This document shows, piece after piece, positions 17,301-51,165 of a DNA stretch of 64,000 nt. The position numbers and the translations under genes were made by a program. Numbering within the stretch: position 1 is the first letter of the stretch; every line of letters starts with the position of its first letter. This DNA comes from a virus (lineage: Duplodnaviria > Heunggongvirae > Uroviricota > Caudoviricetes): IMG/VR virus record IMGVR_UViG_3300025858_000011; one strand, 5' to 3'. The notes under the pieces were generated by a model. It saw only the letters and a program-made list of their open reading frames with translations. It searched no databases and was not told where the DNA came from.

Positions 17301-17522
17301 ATGAGTAAGTGTAACGGCGTAGGAATTAAATTATATCCTGGAGAATCAATCGATTCTGCTTTAAGAAGATATAAAACACAATTGGAAAGATCTGGTATAT
17401 TGGATATAATGCAGAGAAAGGAATATTATTTAAAACCATCCGCGGCCAAAAAGGCTAAGAAGGCATTAAGAAGAAAAGAAAAAGAGTACGTAGACAATAC
17501 GGAAGAGTTTTATAATGAGTAA
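17301..17522 (+). CDS. rpsU: Phage-encoded ribosomal protein bS21
   Basis: GESIDSALRRYK..GILD.MQRKEYYLKPSAAKK. Confidence 0.9.
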   Translation: MSKCNGVGIKLYPGESIDSALRRYKTQLERSGILDIMQRKEYYLKPSAAKKAKKALRRKEKEYVDNTEEFYNE

Positions 17523-20268
17523 GATTGTTTCATTATCAAGAAGTCAATTTGCGGAATCATTTTTATGGCTAAATGGTAGAAAATTAAGCCTGGATTATTA
17601 TCCGCATATGAGGCAAATATATGATTCTGAGGCGAGAGAGTCTGTATTAATGTTCTCCCGTCAGTGTGTATTAAACTCACAAAGAATTGATTTATCAGAT
17701 GGTAGCTCAAAATTGGCAGAGGATTTGCAACCGGGAGATGCCATAATAGGTTTTGATGTTGATACGTATAAAAATGTGGTAGATGTAGTAGAAAATGTAT
17801 GGGACAATGGGGTAGCTCCTATTTATCACATTATCACTAGGACCGGAAGAGAAGTATTCGTTACAGATAATCATCCTTTTCGTAAAGTAGATTCTTGGTG
17901 TGAAGCTAAGAATTTACAAGAGGGGGACTTAATTGCAGTATCTAGAGATAATTCTTGCTCGCTACAAACAGAACAAACGGTAGAAAATTGGAAGTACATT
18001 GTTGCTGCGTATTTATTAGCAGAAGGGGCCATCAGTAATAATTCATTGGGATTTACTTCTGGTAATAAAATATTGGTGAGTGAGTTAGAAACTGCTTTAA
18101 AGCAGTTAGATGATAGATTAGTAGTAAAAGCATTACCAGAAAAATATAAGTATCAATACAGATTAAACGGGATTGGTGTTGGAAAGCCTAATCCATTAAA
18201 GACTTGGTTAATAAAAGAAAAGATGTTTGGGAAAACTTCCGCTTACAAAGAACACCCATCTTTTATCTGGAAATTAACTGGGGAACAAATTAAAGATTAT
18301 TTAAGAATTTGGTGGGATACAGACGGGTACTGGAGTTTACATAAGAATGGTACTAACTACATTGGTATTGGATTAATATCATTTCCTCTTGTTAAGGGTA
18401 TTCAAACTTTACTTCTAAAGTTGGGGATACACTCTGTAATAAGAAGTAAATATCAACCTAAGATTTATAATGGGACAGATAAGAAAGTATATGTGTTAAC
18501 TATTGAAGGACAAGATAGTATTAGATGTTTTTATGATAATATTTTAACTTATAAACGCCCAGAGACTTTAGTATTACGGAAAGAGACTCATAACAGATTG
18601 GTTATCGATAAATTTTTTGTAGATAATCTTTTGTCTAGTTTAAAAAATAAAAAGAATCCAATATTATATAGATCCAGCTCAAGTAAGAGTTATGCATTTG
18701 AGAAAATTAAAAGAATTTATAATGAACGAAATATTCCAGAATTAAAAAAAATAATTGATTCAGATATTTATTTTGATAAAGTTATGTCTGTGGAATATAT
18801 TGGTGATTTACCTTCTACGGGGATTGAAATAAAAAATACTCATACTTTTCAGATAGACCATTTAATTTCAAAAAATACTTCGAAAAGTACATCAATTGCT
18901 AATATAATGATCACAAATTCAGCGATGATTCCTGGATATAAATCATTATATGTGTCACCAACTGTAGATCAGACAAAGATTTTTTCTCATGATAGAGTAA
19001 CTCCAGTAATTGAGTCTAGTCCATTTATTAAGAATTATTTTATAAATTCGTCATTAGTGCAAAACGTGTTTATGAAGCAGTTTTTAAATGGAAGTTCATT
19101 ATATTTGCGCTACGCATTACTTACCGCGGATAGACTCCGCGGAATGAGCACTGATCATAATTTATTTGATGAAGTTCAGGATATGCGCTTGGACCTGATT
19201 CCTATTATACAGGAATCAATGTCAAGATCGATGTATAAACGCACTTTATATTCTGGAACTCCAAAGAGAACACAAGGAACATTGGCAAGTTTATGGAAGC
19301 GTTCTAATAAGGGCGAGTATGTAATTAAATGTGTATCATGTAATTTTTGGAATATATTAGGTGAATCAAACATCGGCCCCATCGGACCAATTTGTACTAA
19401 GTGCGGAAGGCATCTTGATATAAAAATTGGACAGTGGGTATCTACATACTCACTATCACAAGAACCTGATCTTCAAGGTTATCGTGTGTGCCTATTGCAT
19501 TTTTCTGGAGCCCCATGGGTAGATTGGAAGCGGGATGTATTAGAAAAACAAAAACACTTTAGTCGTGCTTATTTTGCAAATGAAGTCCTGGCCCTAGAGC
19601 ACGATGAGGGAGCGTCTCCAGTAACGATGGATGATATTCGTGCCTGTTGCGACCCAAATCTTGTAATGACTGAAGAACCCTCAGCACTTGATAGATCCTA
19701 TACAAATGTAATGGGCATCGACTACGGCCCAGTAAACTCGGAGAATTCTTATACAGTACTTGTGTGTTTGCAACTTCGTGGAGACGTAGTTCACGTTGTT
19801 TATGCTAAACGATTTATGGGGAAAGAGGCAGATTTTTCTTTTATTCATAAGGAAGTTCCTAGATTGATGGATAAATGGAATTGCTCACAACTTGCCGCAG
19901 ATTATGGCATGGGAGAGGCTTCTAATTCTGAAATTAGATCCAAGATAGGATTTCAAAAAGTAATTGCTTTTCAACATCTGCATGCGCAGAAAGAGAAAGT
20001 AAAATGGAATCCAAAGATGCCCGCGTACACTCTTAATAGAAATCAAATACTAGGAGAATTTTTTACACGAGTAAAAAAGAAAAAGATTCTTTTTCCTCGG
20101 TTTGAGGATTTTGAAACATTTGGCGTAGATATGATGAATGTTCAAATGAAATTTGATGAAGAAAGAAACAGCATGTCATATATAAACATCGGGGCCGATG
20201 ATTTTGTGCATGCGACTACTTATGCATTAACTGCACTAGAATTATTTCATGGAATAGGCGGAATTTAA
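17515..20268 (+). CDS. terL: Terminase large subunit (intein-containing)
   Basis: Spliced Walker A FSRQ|TSKST; Walker B LFDEVQD; SGTPK; CxxC..CxxC zinc finger; RuvC-like GIDYG and DDFVHA. Confidence 0.88.
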   Translation: MSKIVSLSRSQFAESFLWLNGRKLSLDYYPHMRQIYDSEARESVLMFSRQCVLNSQRIDLSDGSSKLAEDLQPGDAIIGFDVDTYKNVVDVVENVWDNGVAPIYHIITRTGREVFVTDNHPFRKVDSWCEAKNLQEGDLIAVSRDNSCSLQTEQTVENWKYIVAAYLLAEGAISNNSLGFTSGNKILVSELETALKQLDDRLVVKALPEKYKYQYRLNGIGVGKPNPLKTWLIKEKMFGKTSAYKEHPSFIWKLTGEQIKDYLRIWWDTDGYWSLHKNGTNYIGIGLISFPLVKGIQTLLLKLGIHSVIRSKYQPKIYNGTDKKVYVLTIEGQDSIRCFYDNILTYKRPETLVLRKETHNRLVIDKFFVDNLLSSLKNKKNPILYRSSSSKSYAFEKIKRIYNERNIPELKKIIDSDIYFDKVMSVEYIGDLPSTGIEIKNTHTFQIDHLISKNTSKSTSIANIMITNSAMIPGYKSLYVSPTVDQTKIFSHDRVTPVIESSPFIKNYFINSSLVQNVFMKQFLNGSSLYLRYALLTADRLRGMSTDHNLFDEVQDMRLDLIPIIQESMSRSMYKRTLYSGTPKRTQGTLASLWKRSNKGEYVIKCVSCNFWNILGESNIGPIGPICTKCGRHLDIKIGQWVSTYSLSQEPDLQGYRVCLLHFSGAPWVDWKRDVLEKQKHFSRAYFANEVLALEHDEGASPVTMDDIRACCDPNLVMTEEPSALDRSYTNVMGIDYGPVNSENSYTVLVCLQLRGDVVHVVYAKRFMGKEADFSFIHKEVPRLMDKWNCSQLAADYGMGEASNSEIRSKIGFQKVIAFQHLHAQKEKVKWNPKMPAYTLNRNQILGEFFTRVKKKKILFPRFEDFETFGVDMMNVQMKFDEERNSMSYINIGADDFVHATTYALTALELFHGIGGI
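17665..18876 (+). mobile_element. Intein with LAGLIDADG endonuclease in TerL (404 aa)
   Basis: Starts CVLNSQRI; TDNHPF block B; AAYLLAEG and IWWDTDG blocks; ends ISKN; +1 residue Thr. Confidence 0.9.
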
Positions 20269-20310: not shown

Positions 20311-21552
20311 ATGGCTAATAATCTTGATTTAGATGTTTTAGGAAAAAATATTTCTGATGAATTTGTACGAAATGGTATTCCCATGACTACATCTCTTACT
20401 AAAGTTGCCAGTGAAAACGGACTTAATAAACATCAGATTTCTAGAGTTGCAGAGGTTGCTAATGTGGAGGCATACTTAACATTGATTAAAACCGCTTCTA
20501 ATAAATACATCGAATTTCCGGTTGCTGATCCACTTGCCGTATCGGCAGAGTTATCAAAAACTGCCGATGCTTACGATACATCGGATTATGAAAAATGTCC
20601 AGAGTCAAGTACTAGCGCTGAATCTTTATTTGCTGCGTATGAGGAGTTAAATAAAACTGCTTCAATTTGGTCCAGTCCAATAGTGCATGATGGAACTACA
20701 TATCAGATTAAATTGACTAATGAGGCATTGGACATCGCATTAGAGAAGGTAGCAACCAATGTAAAGATTCAGAAATTAAAAGAACTTTCTTTAATTAAAG
20801 AAGCCGACGGTAGAGCATCTTTTAATTATAAAGGTAAAAATTGGAATTTAGTTATAAATGATAAAACAGTAGAGATACTAAAGAGTGCATCATTTACTGA
20901 CTCAAAGTTTAAAAAATTAGCAAGTCTTGGACTTGTGATTGACTCTCACGATTACATCCCCACGCAAGAATCAGACTTTCGTAAAGTAGCCCAGGTACGC
21001 GAAGGAGAAATCAAAAATCTTAGAAATAATTTACAAGAACAATCAAGTGCTCTTTTGGGGGACATCGGGGATTTATATTATTTCGTTAAACAGGCAAGTT
21101 TATCAGGAGAACTTCCTAAAAACGTAGTTGGAATTATCAAGGTTGCATCAGCAAATGTCTATGACCTGGTAGCAGAACCTGTTTTATCTAAGTTACAAAG
21201 TGAAGCACCACATTTAGATTATGATTCTTCTTCCGAAAAATTAGTAAATTCAGAATCAGAACTTTTCAAACTTGCTAGAAAAATTGAATCCAAAGTAGAA
21301 ACTATTGAAACAATAAAAAATAACCTTGGCGATCTTGAGAGAAAGTATGCAGAATTTACAAAATTAAAAAGACTACCTGATATGATCACCAAGACAGCGA
21401 TGTCTCAAATTAGTGCTACTCCGGTAGTAGCCGCATTTGTGGCCGGGGGGTTAATGGGACATTACGTTGGAAAAAATAAAGGAAAGTATGAACAAGGTCA
21501 GGTCTTACAAAAGGCGTTATTAAAAAATAATGTAGATAAACTAGGAGTGTAA
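20311..21552 (+). CDS. KxA-motif-rich putative head/internal protein
   Basis: About 11 K-x-A motifs (TKVAS, IKTAS, SKTAD, NKTAS, EKVAT...); hydrophobic Gly-rich C-terminus; lies in the head module. Confidence 0.55.
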   Translation: MANNLDLDVLGKNISDEFVRNGIPMTTSLTKVASENGLNKHQISRVAEVANVEAYLTLIKTASNKYIEFPVADPLAVSAELSKTADAYDTSDYEKCPESSTSAESLFAAYEELNKTASIWSSPIVHDGTTYQIKLTNEALDIALEKVATNVKIQKLKELSLIKEADGRASFNYKGKNWNLVINDKTVEILKSASFTDSKFKKLASLGLVIDSHDYIPTQESDFRKVAQVREGEIKNLRNNLQEQSSALLGDIGDLYYFVKQASLSGELPKNVVGIIKVASANVYDLVAEPVLSKLQSEAPHLDYDSSSEKLVNSESELFKLARKIESKVETIETIKNNLGDLERKYAEFTKLKRLPDMITKTAMSQISATPVVAAFVAGGLMGHYVGKNKGKYEQGQVLQKALLKNNVDKLGV

Positions 21553-21554
21553 TA

Positions 21555-22223
21555 ATGAAATATATTTACAAATATGCAGCTAATGGATATCGGGAACTTG
21601 GCGATCTGGCAACATCAGCTTCAGGTGGAGGACTTAAGACAATGTTTAAGGAAATGTCTCCTGCTGCAAAAATTACATTGTTTTCTGCGCTAGTTGCCCC
21701 CTTTGCGGCACAAGCAGCAAATTCTTTTGTTGAGGGAGTAAGGAACTATCTTACTAGAAAATCAATTGCAGCAAAGGATCCAATATATTATCAGAGAATG
21801 CTAAAGGCACATCCACAGTTAGTGGAGGCTGACCCCGAGCAAGTTGCTGCTATTTGGTCATCATTATATTATCATGCTCCAAATTTAGCGGAAGACCCAA
21901 TTGCGGCTGGTGCATTTGTTCGTCAAATTTTACAAAAAGGACTAATGGATGACTATGGTGGTCCGTCAGTTGATACTTATGGAACACTAACTCAAATTGA
22001 TGAACGGCTGTCCAGACATCCTGGAAGAATGAAGCAAGACAATAAAGAGAATGTGCAGCATAATACACAACTTCTTTCATCAATTTTTGCAAAACGCGTT
22101 ATGGATCCCAATATCCAAGAAATAATGAATAATCCAGAATTACAAGGCAATGTTTCGGAATCAAAAAAGATAGTCTTGGATTATTTAAAACACCATGGTA
22201 TGTTGCAAAGTTGGTTAAAGTAA
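21555..22223 (+). CDS. Putative head/internal protein
   Basis: IYKYAA at the N-terminus, followed by a hydrophobic helix; lies between TerL and the protease. Confidence 0.5.
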   Translation: MKYIYKYAANGYRELGDLATSASGGGLKTMFKEMSPAAKITLFSALVAPFAAQAANSFVEGVRNYLTRKSIAAKDPIYYQRMLKAHPQLVEADPEQVAAIWSSLYYHAPNLAEDPIAAGAFVRQILQKGLMDDYGGPSVDTYGTLTQIDERLSRHPGRMKQDNKENVQHNTQLLSSIFAKRVMDPNIQEIMNNPELQGNVSESKKIVLDYLKHHGMLQSWLK

Positions 22224-22226
22224 GAA

Positions 22227-25100
22227 TTGATAAAGTATATCGATTACATATATGGTGATTCAAGTTCTTCCGTATTGGAATTAGTTCATCCTGGGGCTCT
22301 TATAAAGACTGCAGAATATTCTTCAGAAATTGTGGAGTTTATTAAACGATTACTTCCTAAGGATGGGGTAACCTATGCTTTAATGAATGCCCTATCAGCA
22401 GGAGAATATTATGGATCTAATCGTAATGGGGATTATTTTCCAGAAGATGCTTTAATTAAGCACCATCATACATTTCAGGAAATGGGCCATGTTTATGAAC
22501 ATCATGTAAATAAGGACCCGGCTCGAGCATATGGAACCGTGCCCTTTTCATTTTATAATCCATCGATGCATCGCGTGGAACTTATTGTTGAAATTGAAAA
22601 TAATAAAGCTAGACCCATCATTGATAGATTAGAGAAGGGAGAGTTACCAGCTGTTAGCATGGGCACCAGGGTTCCTTATGATGTCTGTTTATCCACTGAA
22701 ACATTATTATATAATGAAAATGGATTGGGCACTCTTGCAGAAATAGAAGTAGGAGACAAAGTTTTTACTCATATGGGAACTTTAGAAACTGTTGAAGCCA
22801 CTAGTGAAAGAGTACTAAGTTCTTATATTAAAATTTCTATATTTGGTGATTATTATAAGTTATCAGGTAGTCATGAACATCCTATGCAAATTGTTAGAAA
22901 AGAACAATTCGTTGAAGGTACTAAAAATGTTATTAGAAGATCATCTTTAAAAGACGAACCATTATTAGAATGGGTAAAATTAGATTCTTTAAGAGTTGGG
23001 GATTACTTAGTTTTTAAAAAAACTATAGAATCCGGAAACGACATTAGTACTGCAATGGCGCGAATTTTAGGATATTATTTATCAGAAGGATTTATAATTA
23101 AACAAGGGACTAGAAGAGACAAGAAAGGACCAATAAAAAATATGGGTGTAGGGTTCTCTTTTAATATTAATGAGAAAGAGACCTTTGTAAAGGATTTAAC
23201 TAATTGTCTTGATGAGGAAGAGTTTTCATATAAATTATATGAAAATATTGAAAAACATGAATTAAGGGTATCAGTTTATTCTAAAGAATTAGCTAGCATT
23301 TTGTTAGAACTTGGTCAAGAATATTCTAAAACAAAGTCAATTCATCCTAAAATATTTTCAATGAGTAACGATATAAAATTTCATGTTCTTGGAAGTGCTA
23401 TTAATGGAGATGGCTCTCAAAATCACAACTCTCATTGTGGTACAATAAGATATAATTCTGTATCAGAGTCATTGGCTAGGGGTATCAGGCGACTTTGTTT
23501 TGAATTAGGAATACCAGCTTCTATTAATAAAAGAAAACAAAAGACTTCTTTTGGTGAACCAGTAATGTACACAGTACATATACCAAGCAGTAGTTCCGAG
23601 TTGTTATCAGAATATTCTGAGAAAATTATTACTTATAATACTAGAGGCGGCTCAAGAATCTTTGCTTTTGCAGATTTTATGTTAATACCTATAACAGGTG
23701 TAAAAGAAATTGATGACTTTTTACTTGTAAAAAATTTACAAGTAAAAAATGATGAATCTTATCAAGTTTTAGATTATGTATCTCATAATTGTTCCATCTG
23801 CGGGCATAAAGCAAAGACCCGGGCGGAGTATTGCGATCATTTGCTTAATAGTATGAATCGGATATTAGCAGATGGAAAGAAGGTTTATGCAATAAATCTT
23901 GAACCAAAATTTTTTGATATAAGTTTTGTCACAATCCCTGCAGACAGAACTGCAGGAGTAATCAGTAGAATTTTATTGGAATCAAATAAAAAAGCAAATT
24001 ATACATGTGATACAGTTCCAATGGAAAAACTATTAGAGAAAACAGCTGCCTGGGAGTCAGTGGCATCAATTGATAAGGAAGTCACTGGAAAGATTGAGGC
24101 AGTTTCTGAAGATCCTAAGAAGTTAATAATTTCATCTCAGAAGAGATTATCTCAGGAACAAATTGAAAAACTTTCTGAGTATCCGATTGAGGGTGTATTA
24201 TCAACTTTATCTGCACTACGGATTATGCCGATGCGGGATGATTTTCAAAAATTGGCTTTATATAGCTTAGGTTATAAAAAAGAAGCTGATGAACTAGAAA
24301 AATTGGGATATGTTTTTAGTATAAATGGCGATGAACCAGAAGTTGAACTAAAAAATATATCCATTGAAAACTATAATGAAAAAATTGCTGGGATATTAGG
24401 AGATGATATACTTTATATGGCAAATACTAAGCCATTAATTATATCAAGAATTCTAGTTAAAGAGGCAATGTATAATGAAGGTCAACAAAACTCATATGTA
24501 AATCCGGCCAGATTATACACAGGAAAAACAATAGAGCCACCCCTATTACAAAAGATTTTAGTTGGACAAAAAGAAGAACCGGTTATGAGTCCGGTCAGGA
24601 ATCCTGCTTTGGCATTAGGAGCCTTAGGCGCGTTATATGTTGGTACTGTAAAATATCAAAATAAACCTAATATGGGCCAATTTAAATCTCTTATATTAAA
24701 GTATCCGTGGATAGCACCTATATTTTTAGCTACAGTTGGTGGAATACTTTCAACAAATGCACAAGAGGCACATTACAAAAATAGTCCTCTATTTGCAGAA
24801 CAATTTTCCAAAACAGCATCAGCACTTGATAAGTACCTAAGAAATATTATAATTGCTGTTCCACCGAGTTATTATTTTTCATATAAAGCGGAAGAAAAAG
24901 CTCGGCGTGGTGTACCAATTACAGGAGTGGAGAACTTTATAAGAAAGCATCCATTACTTGTTGGAGTTGCAGGTGGCCTCGGTGCTACAAAGTTATTAGG
25001 TAAGATTACACCACAATTAACAAAGGTCTCTTCTGTGGTAGCAAGATTAGACAATGAAAGCTTGGATGTATTATTTAATGAATTAACCAAGGAGGATTAA
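22227..25100 (+). CDS. Prohead (capsid maturation) protease with intein and long C-terminal extension
   Basis: HVYEHH, AVSMG (candidate catalytic Ser), spliced VPYDV|CSICG..YCDHL, FFDISFVTIPAD (HK97/assemblin-like); upstream of scaffolds and MCP. Confidence 0.75.
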   Translation: MIKYIDYIYGDSSSSVLELVHPGALIKTAEYSSEIVEFIKRLLPKDGVTYALMNALSAGEYYGSNRNGDYFPEDALIKHHHTFQEMGHVYEHHVNKDPARAYGTVPFSFYNPSMHRVELIVEIENNKARPIIDRLEKGELPAVSMGTRVPYDVCLSTETLLYNENGLGTLAEIEVGDKVFTHMGTLETVEATSERVLSSYIKISIFGDYYKLSGSHEHPMQIVRKEQFVEGTKNVIRRSSLKDEPLLEWVKLDSLRVGDYLVFKKTIESGNDISTAMARILGYYLSEGFIIKQGTRRDKKGPIKNMGVGFSFNINEKETFVKDLTNCLDEEEFSYKLYENIEKHELRVSVYSKELASILLELGQEYSKTKSIHPKIFSMSNDIKFHVLGSAINGDGSQNHNSHCGTIRYNSVSESLARGIRRLCFELGIPASINKRKQKTSFGEPVMYTVHIPSSSSELLSEYSEKIITYNTRGGSRIFAFADFMLIPITGVKEIDDFLLVKNLQVKNDESYQVLDYVSHNCSICGHKAKTRAEYCDHLLNSMNRILADGKKVYAINLEPKFFDISFVTIPADRTAGVISRILLESNKKANYTCDTVPMEKLLEKTAAWESVASIDKEVTGKIEAVSEDPKKLIISSQKRLSQEQIEKLSEYPIEGVLSTLSALRIMPMRDDFQKLALYSLGYKKEADELEKLGYVFSINGDEPEVELKNISIENYNEKIAGILGDDILYMANTKPLIISRILVKEAMYNEGQQNSYVNPARLYTGKTIEPPLLQKILVGQKEEPVMSPVRNPALALGALGALYVGTVKYQNKPNMGQFKSLILKYPWIAPIFLATVGGILSTNAQEAHYKNSPLFAEQFSKTASALDKYLRNIIIAVPPSYYFSYKAEEKARRGVPITGVENFIRKHPLLVGVAGGLGATKLLGKITPQLTKVSSVVARLDNESLDVLFNELTKED
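22686..23789 (+). mobile_element. Intein with LAGLIDADG endonuclease in the prohead protease (368 aa)
   Basis: Starts CLSTETLL; SHEHPM block B; ILGYYLSEG and LGSAINGDG blocks; ends VSHN; +1 residue Cys. Confidence 0.92.
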
Positions 25101-25105
25101 GAAAA

Positions 25106-25639
25106 ATGGGACTAAGTGTAGACCAAATTTTGGCTTCTTTAGAAAGTGAAAAGACAGCTGAAGATATTTTTGCAACTAGTTTAGTTGCGGAATCGGCTGA
25201 AAAGACTGCTCAAGAAGAACCAGAAGAAGTACCAGAGGTCGAGACTGAGGAAACTCCAGAAGAGGATCCTACAGAAGAGACTGAAGTAGAAGAACCAGAA
25301 GCGGAAGAAGCGGAAGAAATAGAAGAACCAGAAGAAAAAGAAGCCGCAGCAAAATGTGCTCCAGCACCAAAAAAGAAGGTCGCTGTAGAAAAGAAAGCTG
25401 AAGAGGAAGTAACGGAAAAAGTGGCAGAATCTGACGATTTTCAAAAATTAGCTGAGGATCTGGATGCTCAAGGTAGAATTATGGCTCATGGTTTCTTCGA
25501 TGAACTTGTAAAACTTTCAGAAATTGAAGTACCTGAGGTTGCTGAGCAAGAAGAAAAAACTGCTGAGGTTGAAGCAGAAGATGAGGGAACTAAAATTTTA
25601 ATGAATTTGTATAATCGTTATCATGGAGGTAACAACTAA
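25106..25639 (+). CDS. Acidic scaffold-like protein with KxAE repeats
   Basis: Very Glu-rich; EKTAE, EKTAQ, EKEAA, EKVAE; GGAGG RBS. Confidence 0.65.
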   Translation: MGLSVDQILASLESEKTAEDIFATSLVAESAEKTAQEEPEEVPEVETEETPEEDPTEETEVEEPEAEEAEEIEEPEEKEAAAKCAPAPKKKVAVEKKAEEEVTEKVAESDDFQKLAEDLDAQGRIMAHGFFDELVKLSEIEVPEVAEQEEKTAEVEAEDEGTKILMNLYNRYHGGNN

Positions 25640-25641
25640 TA

Positions 25642-25929
25642 ATGGAAAAATTAATTGACGTTTACGGCGAATTGGTAAAAGAAGCCGAAGTAAAAGTAGC
25701 TGAAGAAAAAGTAGCAGAACTTGCAAAGTATGCAGAAGCCGCTGATACTCTATTAGCTGCAGAATACGGTGATGATTATAATGCAGAAGATGTAGAAAAG
25801 TTGGCATCTATGATGTACGAGCATGATATGGGCATCGTTCCGCAAGAAACAGAAAAAGTAGCTGAGTTACAGGAAGCCGGCCGTATCATGGCAAGAGCTT
25901 TCATCGAAGAACTACAAGCAGCTCAATAA
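25642..25929 (+). CDS. Acidic scaffold-like protein, partly paralogous to 25106
   Basis: Shares GRIMAxxFxxEL and KVAE repeats. Confidence 0.6.
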   Translation: MEKLIDVYGELVKEAEVKVAEEKVAELAKYAEAADTLLAAEYGDDYNAEDVEKLASMMYEHDMGIVPQETEKVAELQEAGRIMARAFIEELQAAQ

Positions 25930-25945
25930 TTTTTAGGAGTAATCA

Positions 25946-26269
25946 ATGAGTTCCGAGTTAAGAAAAGAAGCAGCAGCTGTTATACGTTCTCTTAAAGAAG
26001 AGAACATGCAGCTTAAGGAGGATTATAATAGAATAAAAGTTGCTACTGATTTGACATTTAAGATGTATAAGTCTGGCAATGTATCTGCGGAAAACTTGGA
26101 ATCTTTATTAGATAGTTTGCTTGGAAAGACAAATCAGGAATTGGAGGTTTTTGAAAAAGCGGCAGAACTTCATATTACATCCGATGTTTTACGTTTTGGA
26201 AGAATTAGTGACCGTCCTGATCTAGATGGGTTAGACCCCATCACCCGCCTCTTATTAGAGGATTATTAA
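25946..26269 (+). CDS. Head assembly/scaffold-like coiled-coil protein
   Basis: LRKEAA, IKVAT, EKAAE; lies in the head module. Confidence 0.55.
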   Translation: MSSELRKEAAAVIRSLKEENMQLKEDYNRIKVATDLTFKMYKSGNVSAENLESLLDSLLGKTNQELEVFEKAAELHITSDVLRFGRISDRPDLDGLDPITRLLLEDY

Positions 26270-26293
26270 CAATTAACTGGAGGAAAAGCGTAA

Positions 26294-26731
26294 ATGCTTA
26301 GAATTCTTACTAATCTGAATCTGCTTAACCGTCAAGATTTTCTGGCGACAGCCGGTTTGATCGCGTCAGGATACACCGGAACATGGGTATCAAAGATTGC
26401 AGCTGACTATATCGATCTTCCCGGAACCGCAGGCGATTCCTGCATAGGAACCGTTTGGACAGAATCAAATCGTGATGGTACTGTAGGTTGGACTCCTGAT
26501 GTATCTGATACCGGTAAACTGACTGTAGTTTTCGGTAGATTTAGAGCCCTTACAGATCAATTCACTGCTACTCCCGCCATCGGTGAAGCATTGAAAGTTG
26601 GAACAGATGGAAAATTAGCAACCGCCACTCTTGGTGGTACTGACAGAGTCGTTGGCTATTGCACAAAGGCAAGTCATACTATCGAGCATCTTGGTAGAAA
26701 TCACACAGTTATTGAATACGTAACTGCATAA
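26294..26731 (+). CDS. Capsid decoration/cement protein
   Basis: Directly upstream of the MCP; beta-rich with IGEALKVGTDGKL..VVGYC. Confidence 0.65.
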   Translation: MLRILTNLNLLNRQDFLATAGLIASGYTGTWVSKIAADYIDLPGTAGDSCIGTVWTESNRDGTVGWTPDVSDTGKLTVVFGRFRALTDQFTATPAIGEALKVGTDGKLATATLGGTDRVVGYCTKASHTIEHLGRNHTVIEYVTA

Positions 26732-26746
26732 CGGAGGAGTATATTA

Positions 26747-27640
26747 ATGGATAATTTATCTGCTAGCACATTGAACGAGCTTTTCGTTCAAAAGCTGAAT
26801 ACTCCCGAGGGCATCGACAAGGTAGCTCAAGAGGGTTCGGCGTTTGTAAGACAAAAACTGCGTGAAATTTCTTTCGCAAGAAAGGTAATGCAACCACAGT
26901 ATGTAACAAAGGCTGATCTACAAAGATCAGTTAATCATGATGGACTAGTCAAGATCGTTGACATCGAGCCAGATTCCAAGGCTATGACTGTTAACTTCCG
27001 TGGCGAGCCCGATTTTAACTACGTAGAAGGTGAGAGATTTGAAATTCCTTTCTTCATGATTTCGTCAGAAGATTTTCAGAAGACAGAGGAAGAATTACTT
27101 GCCTACGAAATGCCCCTTACAGAAGTAATTGAGAAGAACTCTGTATTGGATATTCAAAAAATAGAAGATACGTCCTTTTTAGTTCAAGTAGACGCTGCTA
27201 TCGCAACTGAAGCTTCAGCACAAACTGGAACTTACGACACCGATGGTACCGTAAAAAAGAGCGATTTCAAAAAGTTATTCGACGTATTGGACGGAAACGA
27301 ACTGCGTGCCGAGACACTTCTTATGGATTCGAAGATGTTCAATCGTTTGATTCTTTATGATGATGACGTATTGGGATCATTGACCGGTGAAGTGGTTGTA
27401 AACGGTTACACATATGCAACTCTTTTCGGACGTAAACTGATTGTATCAAACAAAGTTTCTTTGCTTGATGGAAAGATTTACGCCTTTACATCACAGGATT
27501 TCATGGGTCAGTTCCTGATCCTTAATGATACAAAGTTCTGGATTGAAAAGAAAAAGAATATTATCACTTTTGCAGCTTATGAGTCAGTCGGTATGGGAAT
27601 TGGTAACACCAAATCTTGTGCAAAGATTACTCTTAGCTAA
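26747..27640 (+). CDS. Major capsid protein (compact HK97-fold, 297 aa)
   Basis: Strong GGAGG RBS; follows protease, scaffolds and decoration gene; followed by a terminator; HK97-like C-terminal strands (TLFGRKLIVS..ESVGMGIGN). Confidence 0.75.
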   Translation: MDNLSASTLNELFVQKLNTPEGIDKVAQEGSAFVRQKLREISFARKVMQPQYVTKADLQRSVNHDGLVKIVDIEPDSKAMTVNFRGEPDFNYVEGERFEIPFFMISSEDFQKTEEELLAYEMPLTEVIEKNSVLDIQKIEDTSFLVQVDAAIATEASAQTGTYDTDGTVKKSDFKKLFDVLDGNELRAETLLMDSKMFNRLILYDDDVLGSLTGEVVVNGYTYATLFGRKLIVSNKVSLLDGKIYAFTSQDFMGQFLILNDTKFWIEKKKNIITFAAYESVGMGIGNTKSCAKITLS

Positions 27641-49649: not shown

Positions 49650-49851
49650 CTCCTAATTTAATTATTTCTCCCAAGGATAACCGTTCACAAATAGAACAGC
49701 CCTCAGGTCGTAATTTTTGTTGGCATTCGTCTGGATTATCCCAATTATGAAAAATGGTATCCCATTTTTCCTGGGTTACATCCAGATCTGTTTGAATATT
49801 TTTTATTTCATTAAAGTCTTTTGACTCTCTTGGATGATTTTCTTTACTCAT
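49618..49851 (-). CDS. Hypothetical protein (CxxC)
   Basis: Coupled to the E1 gene by overlap. Confidence 0.5.
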   Translation of the reverse strand: MSKENHPRESKDFNEIKNIQTDLDVTQEKWDTIFHNWDNPDECQQKLRPEGCSICERLSLGEIIKLGDDTYGKVGKI

Positions 49852-50438
49852 ACCATCAACCTCAAGTTTGGACGGTTATAATCTCCTCTAATCCAATTTA
49901 ATAGAAGTTGAGAACCAATTGCTGCAATTATTTTATTACCTTGCTGGATTAATCCTGCACTCAATTCAAATTCTAATTGACAGCTTCCGGATCCCGTATC
50001 TTCCTTGGGAAGAGTTTCAACCATGTGCTCATATGTATTATCTTTATGTTTTACATAATATGCAATAGATCTTCCTTCACTACGAAGGTCAAGCCAATAA
50101 ATTTCCGGCATAGTCTCAAGGTATTTAAATAAATCTAATCTAAATTGTTTATTATCAACTGCACTAACTATGCAATTATATTGTGCCAGTTCTGACACAT
50201 CTATTACTTTGTGAGAAACTCCCAAAAAACCATACTTACTTGAAATGCACTCTACTTTATAATCCATGATATCAACTTTATCAAATTTTTGATATCTTAG
50301 ATTTTTATCTTCAACGATGTCATCGTCGAAAAATGTAAAACCAATATTTGAAAATTGATTAAATTTTTGTAGTTCATATAAATTAAAGGCAAGATAACTT
50401 CCAATTCCACCAGCTCCAACAATTGCTACTTTTTTCAT
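49848..50438 (-). CDS. ThiF/E1-like adenylating enzyme
   Basis: VGAGGIGS, DDDIVEDKNLRYQ, VSAVDN, DLRSEG, candidate active Cys in GSGSCQ. Confidence 0.88.
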   Translation of the reverse strand: MKKVAIVGAGGIGSYLAFNLYELQKFNQFSNIGFTFFDDDIVEDKNLRYQKFDKVDIMDYKVECISSKYGFLGVSHKVIDVSELAQYNCIVSAVDNKQFRLDLFKYLETMPEIYWLDLRSEGRSIAYYVKHKDNTYEHMVETLPKEDTGSGSCQLEFELSAGLIQQGNKIIAAIGSQLLLNWIRGDYNRPNLRLMV

Positions 50439-50902
50439 TTTCCTTCCACCTCTAAATGTGCAGGTTCATATCTAACAATATCATCTGAATAGTATGTATT
50501 TATTTCTTTATATAATGGGGAGTAAATTACATAGATTCCTCTATAATTTGCACCAATTATATCTGTTGACGACGGTCTTGCAATATTTCTTGGATGAGTA
50601 TGAAATATCAGTACCAATTCATCTGTCATAGTATCGTCAAATAATTTAGTTTTTGATATTACTTTGAAAAGCTCATTTGGGTCCGGAATGTAATCAGTGT
50701 CCGCGTGTACATCAAATAGTTTTGCTATTTCTTTGTATTTTGGATCTCTAACTACATTTTTTATTTTTGTAATTTGTAAACATATAAAAGTTTCTTTATT
50801 AATTACTCCGGTTCCGACCGCTATCACCTCATCATAAAGGCTATCATCCCCGTACTTTATTAACCCATGCAATAATTCTTTTCGTATTTTTAATGTTTTC
50901 AT
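50435..50902 (-). CDS. JAB/MPN metallopeptidase (deubiquitinase-like)
   Basis: DEV upstream Glu; FHTHPRNIARPSSTD fits HxHx7Sx2D. Confidence 0.85.
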   Translation of the reverse strand: MKTLKIRKELLHGLIKYGDDSLYDEVIAVGTGVINKETFICLQITKIKNVVRDPKYKEIAKLFDVHADTDYIPDPNELFKVISKTKLFDDTMTDELVLIFHTHPRNIARPSSTDIIGANYRGIYVIYSPLYKEINTYYSDDIVRYEPAHLEVEGK

Positions 50903-50908
50903 AATAAT

Positions 50909-50930
50909 AAGGGCAGGTTTCCCTGCCCTT
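50909..50930 (-). terminator. GAAA-capped hairpin between the Ubl and JAB genes
   Basis: aagggcagg-gaaa-cctgccctt (9 bp) with only a weak U-rich tail. Confidence 0.45.
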
Positions 50931-50937
50931 CCTAAAT

Positions 50938-51165
50938 TTAATTTCCACCAACAAGTCCGTTTGTTAACACTAGGTCTTGGGCAGCCGCCAAATCTTCAAT
51001 TGTAATGTCGTTTGGTGACTTGAATTCATTATTAATATATAACCACTTTCCGTTCTTAGTGGCTTCAGTAATATGCTCCAGTGCCTCATCCAGATCAAAA
51101 TCGTAATCTGTATGACCTTGACTTGAAACTTCTTTTATGTGAACTCTTATTGTATGATCTATCAT
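50938..51165 (-). CDS. Ubiquitin-like (ThiS/MoaD beta-grasp) protein ending GG-N
   Basis: 75 aa; WLYINNEF..DLVLTNGLVGG-N matches the beta-grasp C-terminal pattern; adjacent to JAB and E1. Confidence 0.75.
   Translation of the reverse strand: MIDHTIRVHIKEVSSQGHTDYDFDLDEALEHITEATKNGKWLYINNEFKSPNDITIEDLAAAQDLVLTNGLVGGN

What the first reader, a model, noticed from the sequence alone, without database searches (positions are those of the whole stretch)
20311..27640. Pervasive K-x-A motif confined to head-module proteins: candidate maturation-cleavage code
Seen: hydrophobic/E-x-K-x-A-[S/E/A] recurs about 11 times in 20311 and about 7 times in 25106. It also recurs in 25642, 25946 and the protease itself (LIKTAE, LEKTAA, LVKEAM, FSKTAS). 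It occurs once near the N-termini of the decoration protein (SKIAA), MCP (DKVAQE), 21555 (YKYAA) and 3913 (EKAA). I saw essentially none in the six tail paralogues or the tube. Known: T4 and phiKZ-type prohead proteases cut short repeated motifs in scaffold and internal proteins. Inference: K-x-A is this lineage's Lys-anchored cleavage site. An alternative is a Lys modification site, for example for the Ubl system.
Basis: partly seen in the sequence, partly recalled or inferred. Interest (0 to 1): 0.72.

Follow-up and report, generated by a model that had tools for sequence, protein, structure and literature searches.

The report
Lys-x-Ala head-protease cleavage code
The head-assembly proteins of this uncultured 204-kb phage and its relatives carry far too many copies of a six-residue signal (hydrophobic-x-Lys-x-Ala-Ser/Glu), which most likely marks where the phage's herpesvirus-like head protease cuts them, although no cut has been measured.

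Summary
In the window, K-x-A occurs 40 times against 10.9 expected in five head-internal proteins: 20311, the protease exteins, 25106, 25642 and 25946. No other ORF is enriched. The pattern recurs in 79 related viral contigs and in the cultured phages Arash, D69 and G. Among 1,548 gapped dipeptides, K.A is by far the most enriched (z = 23). R.A, K.S and K.G are not enriched.

The signal is compact, spanning positions -2 to +3. It sits at telling places:
- residue ~25 of 56 of 60 capsid proteins;
- an invariant K/A island in the variable N-terminus of the protease;
- just behind the protease domain;
- 15-28 residues before the conserved C-terminal tail of the scaffold;
- the end of short N-terminal leaders on unrelated proteins.

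The protease has the T4 gp21/herpes assemblin fold. The best reading is a prohead-protease recognition code, probably cut after Ala. It is unproven: no termini have been mapped, and AF2 places many sites in helices. The Ubl alternative is disfavoured. The decoration-protein site is chance. The sparse sites in the tail paralogues match what chance predicts.

This scan reached the same reading on other genomes. I found no published description.

The parts
20311..21552 (+). 413-aa head-internal protein, homologue of Salmonella phage Arash gp220. It has 14 K-x-A sites, 13 of them with a hydrophobic residue at -2. It carries a conserved helical N-domain, a roughly 100-aa insertion with 6 extra sites, and a Gly-rich hydrophobic, basic C-terminus.
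21555..22223 (+). 222-aa small hydrophobic head-module protein with one N-terminal site (IYKYAA, nt 21570-21578). Relatives often have an N-terminal K-x-A, at varying positions.
22227..25100 (+). Prohead protease precursor: an assemblin-fold catalytic domain with a Cys-rich insertion, followed by a long C-terminal extension. It has 8 K-x-A sites, all in the exteins.
22686..23789 (+). LAGLIDADG intein inside the protease (aa 154-521), with no K-x-A site. It must splice out for the protease to work.
22305..22313 (+). Protease N-terminal site (LIKTAE, K27). The corresponding K and A are invariant in 17 of 17 diverse homologues, within an otherwise variable N-terminus. AF2 predicts a beta-strand here in a homologue.
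24039..24047 (+). Site just behind the catalytic domain (LLEKTAAW, K605). It is the candidate self-release site. Arash, D69 and G have matching sites (VLEKVA, VLQKVA, ILEKVA).
25106..25639 (+). 177-aa acidic scaffold-like protein with 9 K-x-A sites.
25556..25564 (+). Last scaffold site (EEKTAE, K151), 24 residues before the C-terminus and just upstream of the conserved tail (consensus I-L-x-N-L-Y-N-x-Y/F). A site 15-28 residues from the end is present in 14 of 16 family members.
25642..25929 (+). 95-aa helical head protein with 6 sites. It shares the GRIMA-type element with 25106.
25946..26269 (+). 107-aa head protein with 3 sites (0.5 expected). Its family has observed/expected 3.7.
26747..27640 (+). 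HK97-fold major capsid protein, 297 aa. Its only K-x-A is the N-terminal one. The bodies of related capsid proteins are depleted of the motif.
26819..26827 (+). Capsid N-terminal site (GIDKVAQE; K25, A27). K and A are invariant in alignment A4, and the site is present in 56 of 60 unique relatives. The predicted mature start is Q28 if the cut follows Ala.

Best explanation
The hexapeptide [L/M/I/F]-[E/V/T]-K-x-A-[E/S/A] is the recognition motif of this phage lineage's prohead protease, a divergent serine protease with the T4 gp21/herpesvirus assemblin fold.

Proposed mechanism (inferred, not shown):
- After the intein splices out, the protease is co-assembled into the prohead.
- It binds the motif as an extended strand. 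The hydrophobic residue, Lys and Ala alternate, so they would face the enzyme as P5, P3 and P1.
- It cuts, probably after Ala.

Expected consequences:
- About 27 residues are trimmed from the capsid protein and from the protease itself.
- The catalytic domain is freed from its C-terminal extension.
- The scaffold is detached from its conserved C-terminal tail and, together with the 20311-type internal protein, chopped into short peptides.
- Short N-terminal leaders are removed from proteins loaded into the head.

Shown here: the enrichment, its specificity, its conservation, its placement and the protease fold. Inferred: the cutting itself and the exact scissile bond.
For: 1. Enrichment.
- Window: 40 sites vs 10.9 expected in five head-internal proteins, and none elsewhere.
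- Families across 79 related contigs have observed/expected of 2.1-3.9.
- On 30 non-redundant loci, K.A ranks first of 1,548 gapped dipeptides (496 vs 184, z 23). The next-ranked pairs are parts of the same motif.
- K.A is the top gap-1 pair in 16 of 22 loci taken singly.

2. Specific recognition.
- R.A 0.88, K.S 0.74 and K.G 0.77 are not enriched.
- Information content is confined to positions -2 to +3. Pro is excluded there, and there is no heptad echo.

3. Placement.
- Residue ~25 in 56 of 60 capsid proteins, whose bodies hold 30 sites vs 80 expected.
- K28 and A30 are invariant in 17 of 17 protease N-termini, which are otherwise variable.
- A site directly behind the protease domain in the window phage, Arash, D69 and G.
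- A site 15-28 residues from the scaffold C-terminus, before a conserved tail, in 14 of 16 members.
- Leaders of 12-13 residues on unrelated proteins end in F-x-K-L-A, and similarity stops there.

4. Turnover with kept density in the 20311 family. The median is 10 sites per protein, and only 17% lie in columns shared by at least 70% of members.

5. The protease.
- Invariant His and Ser about 51 residues apart.
- AF2 model with pLDDT 76.
- Best structural match T4 gp21, Z 9.7; herpes assemblins Z 7-8.6.
- Sub-threshold Peptidase_S78/HK97 hits around the Ser.

6. Precedent. gp245 of SPN3US cuts after A-x-E in many head proteins (PMC10052503). T4 gp21 cuts after L/I-x-E, including capsid-targeting leaders (established knowledge).
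Against: - No mature N-terminus or cleavage product is known for any member of the lineage. The Arash virion proteome paper does not analyse processing, and its coverage values cannot discriminate.
- AF2 places most sites of the 20311 protein in helices. Two sit inside a very confident N-terminal domain (K31, K60). That is not the exposed linker context one would expect.
- The capsid residues in front of the site are themselves well conserved.
- Phage G's capsid protein lacks the Lys at this position.
- The depletion in capsid bodies rests on related sequences, so its p-value is inflated. Depletion over all mature proteins is only mild (105 vs 133).
- The scissile bond is inferred only from analogy and from where leader conservation ends.
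Confidence: 0.68

Rival explanations
1. The motif is a docking or targeting peptide that is not cut. It would bind the scaffold core, the protease or the capsid interior and recruit proteins into the prohead, like an encapsulin cargo-loading peptide.
For: - The motif ends N-terminal leaders on unrelated proteins.
- It is compact and residue-specific.
- AF2 predicts a beta-strand for the protease's own N-terminal copy.
- Many copies lie in predicted helices rather than linkers.
Against: - 9-14 copies per scaffold or internal protein, with positional turnover, is more than docking needs.
- Copies flank domain boundaries: behind the protease domain and before the scaffold tail. That fits release sites.
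- In T4 the targeting leader is also the cut site, so docking and cutting are not exclusive.
Confidence: 0.17
2. The motif is a by-product of helical, coiled-coil scaffold sequence rich in Leu, Glu, Lys and Ala (a favoured heptad such as L-E-K-V-A-E-E), or of internal repeats. It has no recognition role.
For: - The proteins are Glu/Lys/Ala/Leu-rich and predicted helical.
- Position +1 is often V/T/L/I, so -2 and +1 could be heptad a and d positions.
- Arash and D69 scaffolds contain repeated units that include the motif.
Against: - Shuffles that keep composition give 3-6 times fewer sites.
- Arg does not substitute for Lys, nor Ser or Gly for Ala.
- There is no information beyond -2 to +3 and no i+7 echo.
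- Other Lys- and Ala-rich ORFs of the window are not enriched: 40495 has 1 vs 3.2, and 3913 has 2 vs 1.7.
- The motif is invariant in non-helical, variable N-termini of the protease and at leader ends.
Confidence: 0.08
3. The Lys is a modification site, for example for conjugation by the phage's ubiquitin-like system or another Lys-directed enzyme.
For:
- The motif is Lys-centred with a hydrophobic residue upstream, loosely like the SUMO consensus. That resemblance is from my own knowledge.
Against: - The E1 gene has no match in Vibrio phage D69, in phage G or in the 100%-complete relative behind L058. Arash gives only a weak partial hit.
- D69, G, Arash and L058 all show the enrichment.
- The invariant Ala two residues on, and the placement at domain boundaries, are not explained.
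Confidence: 0.03

Closest known systems
Phage T4 prohead protease gp21 (PDB 5JBL, MEROPS S77) with its L/I-x-E cleavage motif and the capsid-targeting leaders of the internal proteins
   Same: - Best structural match of the protease model: Z 9.7, rmsd 3.0 over 128 residues.
- A short P3-x-P1-type motif repeated in scaffold and internal proteins, and near the N-termini of the capsid protein and the protease.
- Short N-terminal leaders on unrelated proteins that end in the motif.
   Different: - The motif is Lys-x-Ala, not Leu/Ile-x-Glu.
- No sequence-level membership.
- The protease has a Cys-rich insertion, a roughly 370-aa C-terminal extension and here an intein.
- Cutting is not demonstrated.
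phiKZ gp175 / SPN3US gp245 prohead proteases (MEROPS S80), which cut after A-x-E (PMC10052503)
   Same: A giant-phage head protease that processes many head proteins at one short motif with a free middle position. Several candidate sites lie within propeptides.
   Different: - Different specificity: P1 Glu there, probably Ala here.
- Different phage lineage, and no detectable sequence relation.
- Those sites were mapped by mass spectrometry. These were not.
Herpesvirus assemblin and its protease-scaffold precursor (MEROPS S21), with release and maturation sites (V/L/I)-x-A|S
   Same: - Fold matches at Z 7-8.6.
- The protease is fused to a long C-terminal extension, with a site right behind the catalytic domain.
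- The scaffold has a site 15-28 residues from its C-terminus, in front of a conserved tail. This resembles the maturation site about 25 residues from the end of the herpes scaffold (established knowledge).
- Ala followed often by Ser at the presumed cut.
   Different: - P3 is Lys, not a hydrophobic residue.
- There are many more sites per protein.
- The scaffold is a separate gene.
- The catalytic residues beyond His and Ser are not identified.
HK97 gp4 family prohead proteases (Pfam Peptidase_S78, TIGR01543)
   Same: - Weak similarity around the Ser motif: E 0.007 and 0.022, both below the curated cut-offs.
- The same gene position, upstream of scaffold and capsid genes.
   Different: - Fails the curated score thresholds.
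- HK97 has no separate scaffold and no known K-x-A code.

Membership tests
Assemblin-fold prohead serine proteases (T4 gp21 / herpes assemblin / HK97 gp4 type) | Characteristic fold of the catalytic domain | tested here: met
   AF2 model of an intein-free homologue (pLDDT 76). T4 gp21 5jbl gives Z 9.7, rmsd 3.0, 128 residues aligned. Herpes proteases give Z 7-8.6. Unrelated folds start at Z 4.6. Foldseek's top rows are the same families.
Assemblin-fold prohead serine proteases (T4 gp21 / herpes assemblin / HK97 gp4 type) | Conserved His followed by the nucleophile Ser about 50-70 residues later | tested here: met
   H94 and S145 (S-M-G) are invariant in 17 diverse homologues. Both are present in the window protein: HHVNKD and VSMG. 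Their catalytic role is inferred.
Assemblin-fold prohead serine proteases (T4 gp21 / herpes assemblin / HK97 gp4 type) | Sequence membership in a curated family (Peptidase_S78 / TIGR01543) | tested here: not met
   Only sub-threshold hits: 15.4 bits vs cut-off 21, and 16.5 vs 59. The window protein itself matches only the LAGLIDADG intein in Pfam. This is a divergent, uncurated family.
Assemblin-fold prohead serine proteases (T4 gp21 / herpes assemblin / HK97 gp4 type) | Demonstrated proteolysis of head proteins | not testable with these tools
   No biochemical or proteomic data on termini for any relative. The Arash paper has none.
T4-type cleavage code with capsid-targeting leaders | One short motif over-represented in scaffold and internal head proteins and present near the N-termini of capsid protein and protease | tested here: met
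T4-type cleavage code with capsid-targeting leaders | Short shared N-terminal leaders on unrelated proteins that end in the motif | tested here: met
   Three leaders in this genome (C1:159883, 164465, 38967) and three more in a relative end in F-x-K-L/V-A. The sequences diverge immediately after. The sample is small.
T4-type cleavage code with capsid-targeting leaders | Motif identity L/I-x-E with cut after Glu | tested here: not met
   The motif is hydrophobic-x-K-x-A. It works like the T4 code but is not the same code.
Herpesvirus-type release/maturation site layout | Site directly behind the catalytic domain, and site about 25 residues before the scaffold C-terminus | tested here: met
   A K-x-A lies behind the protease domain in the window phage, Arash, D69 and G. 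A site lies 15-28 residues from the scaffold end in 14 of 16 members. Use of these sites is inferred.
Herpesvirus-type release/maturation site layout | Cut between Ala (P1) and Ser (P1') | tested here: inconclusive
   Position +3 is Glu 27%, Ser 22%, Ala 12%. Leader conservation ends at Ala. No termini have been mapped.
Ubl/SUMO-like Lys conjugation consensus | Motif depends on a co-encoded conjugation system | tested here: not met
   No E1 homologue is found in D69, phage G or the complete relative behind L058. All three keep the enrichment.

The most novel reading that the evidence does not exclude
The hexapeptide is a portable 'load and cut' code read by one uncurated assemblin-fold protease family. 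That family is shared by phage G-like megaphages, Arash-like phages and cluster C mycobacteriophages. The code would first dock scaffold, internal proteins and leader-tagged cargo to the protease by strand pairing, and would then be cut after Ala. On this reading, Ala at P1 (as in herpesvirus assemblins) may be an old specificity of the shared phage/herpes protease lineage, and packaged proteomes could be predicted from sequence.
Probability: 0.3. Interest if true: 0.7.

Novelty: new variant of a known kind. Interest (0 to 1): 0.5.

Why it matters
Prohead proteases with a simple repeated cut motif are known for T4 (L/I-x-E) and phiKZ-type phages (A-x-E). Those motifs made it possible to predict which proteins are loaded into the head and what their mature forms are. 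A third code, Lys-x-Ala, would do the same for a large and mostly uncultured clade. That clade includes phage G, the largest cultured phage, and apparently the roughly 200 sequenced cluster C mycobacteriophages.

If confirmed, the code would:
- identify propeptides, scaffold release sites and leader-tagged cargo directly from sequence;
- give a handle for loading foreign proteins into these capsids;
- add a data point on how specificity evolved in the protease fold shared with herpesviruses.

It is testable now in cultured relatives.

Tried and rejected
- Complex prediction: protease domain (alignment A2, residues 40-220) with the capsid N-terminus (A4). The tool returned 'no answer' (score 0.00, controls not run). 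This is evidence neither for nor against.
- Literature: searches for a K-x-A prohead-protease motif, for phage G or Arash processing, and for Bxz1 capsid processing found nothing relevant. The phage G capsid paper (PMC7316594) is not held. The phage G multi-omics paper has no held supplements.
- Arash proteome coverage (capsid 86.6%): the uncovered residues can be explained by short tryptic peptides alone, so it is uninformative (and my own count).
- PDB: the only relative is phage G gp27 (6wkk, 6.1 Å). It gives no information on the mature N-terminus of K-x-A-bearing capsids.
- Exact DNA pattern for the full leader: no match. A looser pattern found few matches.
- Gene splits in L005/L006 as natural 'pre-cut' forms: the boundaries were not informative.
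- PHROG and Pfam searches on the K-x-A-rich ORFs outside the window gave no family. The 746-aa protein shows no significant similarity to Arash gp218 or the phage G portal.
- Motif avoidance in all mature structural proteins was considered as support. The effect is only mild (z -2.4), so I do not lean on it.
Full report
**What the window is.** The window is part of a 204,271-bp phage contig (G000:C1:91261-155260, minus strand) with about 35% G+C. The + strand carries a head module:
- a gpA-type large terminase with an intein (17515-20268);
- a 413-aa protein with no family match (20311-21552);
- a small hydrophobic protein (21555-22223);
- a prohead protease interrupted by a LAGLIDADG intein (22227-25100; intein 22686-23789);
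- an acidic scaffold-like protein (25106-25639);
- two small helical proteins (25642-25929 and 25946-26269);
- a decoration protein (26294-26731);
- an HK97-fold major capsid protein (26747-27640; phrog_2522, NF042927 below cut-off).

The nearest cultured relatives are distant: Salmonella phage Arash and Vibrio phages D69/D181/D148 (capsid about 30% identical) and Bacillus phage G (20%).

- 20311 has 14 K-x-A vs 3.6 expected;
- 25106 has 9 vs 1.7;
- 25642 has 6 vs 1.3;
- 25946 has 3 vs 0.5;
- the protease has 8 vs 4.4.

All eight protease sites lie in the exteins (8 vs 3.7) and none in the 368-aa intein. Pooled, that is 40 sites vs 10.9 expected. None of about 65 other ORFs is enriched. That includes other Lys- and Ala-rich ones: 40495 has 1 vs 3.2, and 3913 has 2 vs 1.7.

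The decoration-protein site is unique to this phage, in a family that is otherwise depleted (6 vs 18). The tail paralogues have about the number chance predicts (4 vs about 5), because they are Lys-poor.

**Replication in relatives.**
- Arash: gp220 has 10 sites, the protease gp222 has 7, gp223 has 8, gp225 has 7, and there is a capsid N-terminal site.
- D69: 11, 8, 10 and 6 sites in the equivalent genes. Phage G: gp19 (protease) has 8 and gp21 has 7.
- A scan of IMG/VR with a capsid alignment returned 79 loci at 31-81% capsid identity. Enriched ORFs lie upstream of the capsid gene in nearly all loci that include that region, and almost never downstream.
- By family, observed/expected is 3.0 (20311 type, 320 vs 107), 2.1 (protease, 449 vs 212), 3.3, 3.9 and 3.7.
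- An unbiased scan of all 1,548 testable gapped dipeptides on 30 non-redundant loci puts K.A first by a wide margin (496 vs 184, z 23). It is followed by L.K, M.K, K..E, K..S, KT, L...A and EK, which are pieces of the same motif.

**Anatomy of the motif.** The logo is [E/D]-[E/D/G]-[L/M/I/F]-[E/V/T]-K-[V/T/L/Q/E]-A-[E/S/A].
- Information content is confined to positions -2 to +3.
- Pro is excluded from exactly that stretch, and Gly from -2, -1 and +1.
- There is no signal at heptad distances.
- Lys and Ala are not replaceable by like residues: R.A 0.88, K.S 0.74, K.G 0.77 against K.A 2.7.
- The hydrophobic residue, Lys and Ala are spaced i, i+2, i+4. That is the pattern of one face of an extended strand.

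A compact, residue-specific, strand-like hexapeptide argues for recognition by a protein. It argues against a by-product of helical, Glu/Lys/Ala-rich sequence.

**Where the sites sit.**
- Capsid protein. K25-V-A27 is the only site in the window's capsid protein. The same position carries the motif in 56 of 60 unique relatives. The rest of the capsid proteins hold 30 sites against 80 expected (related sequences, so the significance is overstated). K and A are invariant in alignment A4. Phage G has Ala in place of the Lys.
- Protease N-terminus. In 17 homologues at 38-57% identity, the first 55 residues are hardly alignable except for an invariant K28 and A30. AF2 predicts a short beta-strand there.
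- Behind the catalytic domain. The window has LLEKTAAW. Arash, D69 and G have V/I-L-x-K-V-A.
- Scaffold. 14 of 16 family members have a site 15-28 residues from the C-terminus, directly before a conserved tail (I-L-x-N-L-Y-N-x-Y/F). In the window it is 24 residues from the end.
- Leaders. I found three in this genome and three in a relative, on unrelated proteins. All end in F-x-K-L/V-A, and similarity stops at the Ala.
- Turnover. In the 20311 family the number of sites is kept (median 10, range 3-14), but only 17% lie in columns shared by at least 70% of members. Conserved E-K-x-A-S islands stand in otherwise gap-rich linkers.

**The enzyme.** The protease family has invariant His and Ser (S-M-G) 51 residues apart and a Cys-rich insertion. 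The AF2 model of an intein-free homologue (pLDDT 76) matches T4 gp21 best (Z 9.7, rmsd 3.0, 128 residues), then herpesvirus assemblins (Z 7-8.6). Unrelated folds start at Z 4.6. Curated profiles see it only below threshold (Peptidase_S78 E 0.022; TIGR01543 E 0.007). It is therefore a divergent, uncurated branch of the assemblin-fold prohead proteases. The window's copy needs intein splicing to be active.

**Most likely mechanism.** By analogy with T4 gp21 (L/I-x-E|), phiKZ/SPN3US (A-x-E|; PMC10052503) and herpes assemblin ((V/L/I)-x-A|S), all of which read P3-x-P1, I take Lys as P3 and Ala as P1. The hydrophobic residue would be P5 and Ser/Glu/Ala would be P1'. The end of leader conservation at Ala fits this. 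Given cleavage, I put about 70% on a cut after Ala and 30% on a cut after Lys. The mature capsid protein would then start at Gln28.

**Alternatives.**
- Ubl-linked Lys modification is disfavoured. The E1 gene of the cassette at 49848-51165 has no match in D69, phage G or the complete relative behind L058, and all three show the enrichment.
- A purely structural or compositional origin is disfavoured by the residue specificity and the compact footprint.
- A non-cleaved docking motif is not excluded. It may well coexist with cleavage, as in T4.

**What weakens the case.** No terminus has been mapped in any relative. AF2 puts most sites of the 20311 protein in helices, two of them inside a very confident N-terminal domain. 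The capsid residues upstream of the site are conserved.

**Comparison and novelty.** The system works like the T4 and phiKZ cleavage codes and has the layout of herpesvirus release and maturation sites, but the motif differs from all three. I found no paper describing it. This scan has reached the same reading independently on at least eight other genomes, so it is not new to the scan. The protease family also occurs in about 209 cluster C mycobacteriophages, Rhodococcus phage E3, Gordonia phages and Xanthomonas jumbo phages. In phage Alice gp90, K.A is again the top gap-1 pair (19 vs 8.8), with [K/R]-T-A-[A/G/S] sites. That offers easy experimental models.

**Verdict.** The cleavage-code reading is the best explanation (about 0.68) but unproven. 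It is a new variant of a known kind and of moderate interest.

Noticed in passing
G000:C1:167902-170142 (minus strand; L083:8903-11143), about 12.6-14.9 kb before the window's start: 746-aa protein with 22 K-x-A sites against 5.8 expected and an N-terminal T-I-E-K-Q-A. It has no PHROG or Pfam family and no significant similarity to Arash gp218 or the phage G portal. It may be a further large substrate or internal head protein, or a divergent portal.
   Followed up: partly
G000:C1:59873-60946 (L084:874-1947, minus strand) and C1:11452-12186: Two more K-x-A-enriched ORFs far from the head module: 357 aa with 10 vs 3.1 expected (weak DUF6582 hit), and 244 aa with 6 vs 1.3. They are candidate packaged proteins.
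   Followed up: partly
L096 (Mycobacterium phage Alice 42678-47213, gp90) and L097 (Rhodococcus phage E3 gp77): The same protease family is present in about 209 cluster C mycobacteriophages, Gordonia and Rhodococcus phages and Xanthomonas jumbo phages. In Alice gp90, K.A is the top gap-1 dipeptide (19 vs 8.8), and sites look like [K/R]-T-A-[A/G/S]. The Alice capsid protein gp92 is homologous to phage G gp27 (E 2e-28) and has about 33 extra N-terminal residues.
   Followed up: partly
window 25445-25520 and 25855-25926: Both 25106 and 25642 contain a conserved helical element of about 20 residues (G-R-I-M-A-x-x-F-x-x-E-L) preceded by a K-x-A site. In relatives (L010, L027) a K-x-A also follows it, so it looks like a module bracketed by sites.
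   Followed up: partly
L006:4165-7143 and L005:5292-7784: The closest relatives carry inteins at other positions of the protease gene. One sits directly after S-M-G. In L006 a second appears to lie between G-E-F-F-G and S-N-R-N-G-D-Y. The window's intein sits at V-P-Y-D-V|C-S-I-C-G. This suggests repeated independent intein invasion of this protease.
   Followed up: no
window 20653-20985 (aa 115-225 of the 20311 protein): The window's copy has a roughly 100-residue insertion absent from all 27 aligned relatives. The insertion carries 6 additional K-x-A sites and is modelled with low confidence.
   Followed up: partly
L055 (IMGVR_UViG_3300035698_014892): In this relative's protease homologue, the only head-internal family member detected there, R.A (7 vs 2.1) rather than K.A is the top gap-1 dipeptide. 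This may be an Arg-using variant of the code.
   Followed up: no
window 21391-21552, 22227-25100 C-terminal part, and 21555-22223: Gly/Ala-rich hydrophobic segments follow K-x-A sites at the C-termini of the 20311 protein and the protease, and within 21555. Their role (membrane anchoring of proheads, or released peptides) is open.
   Followed up: no
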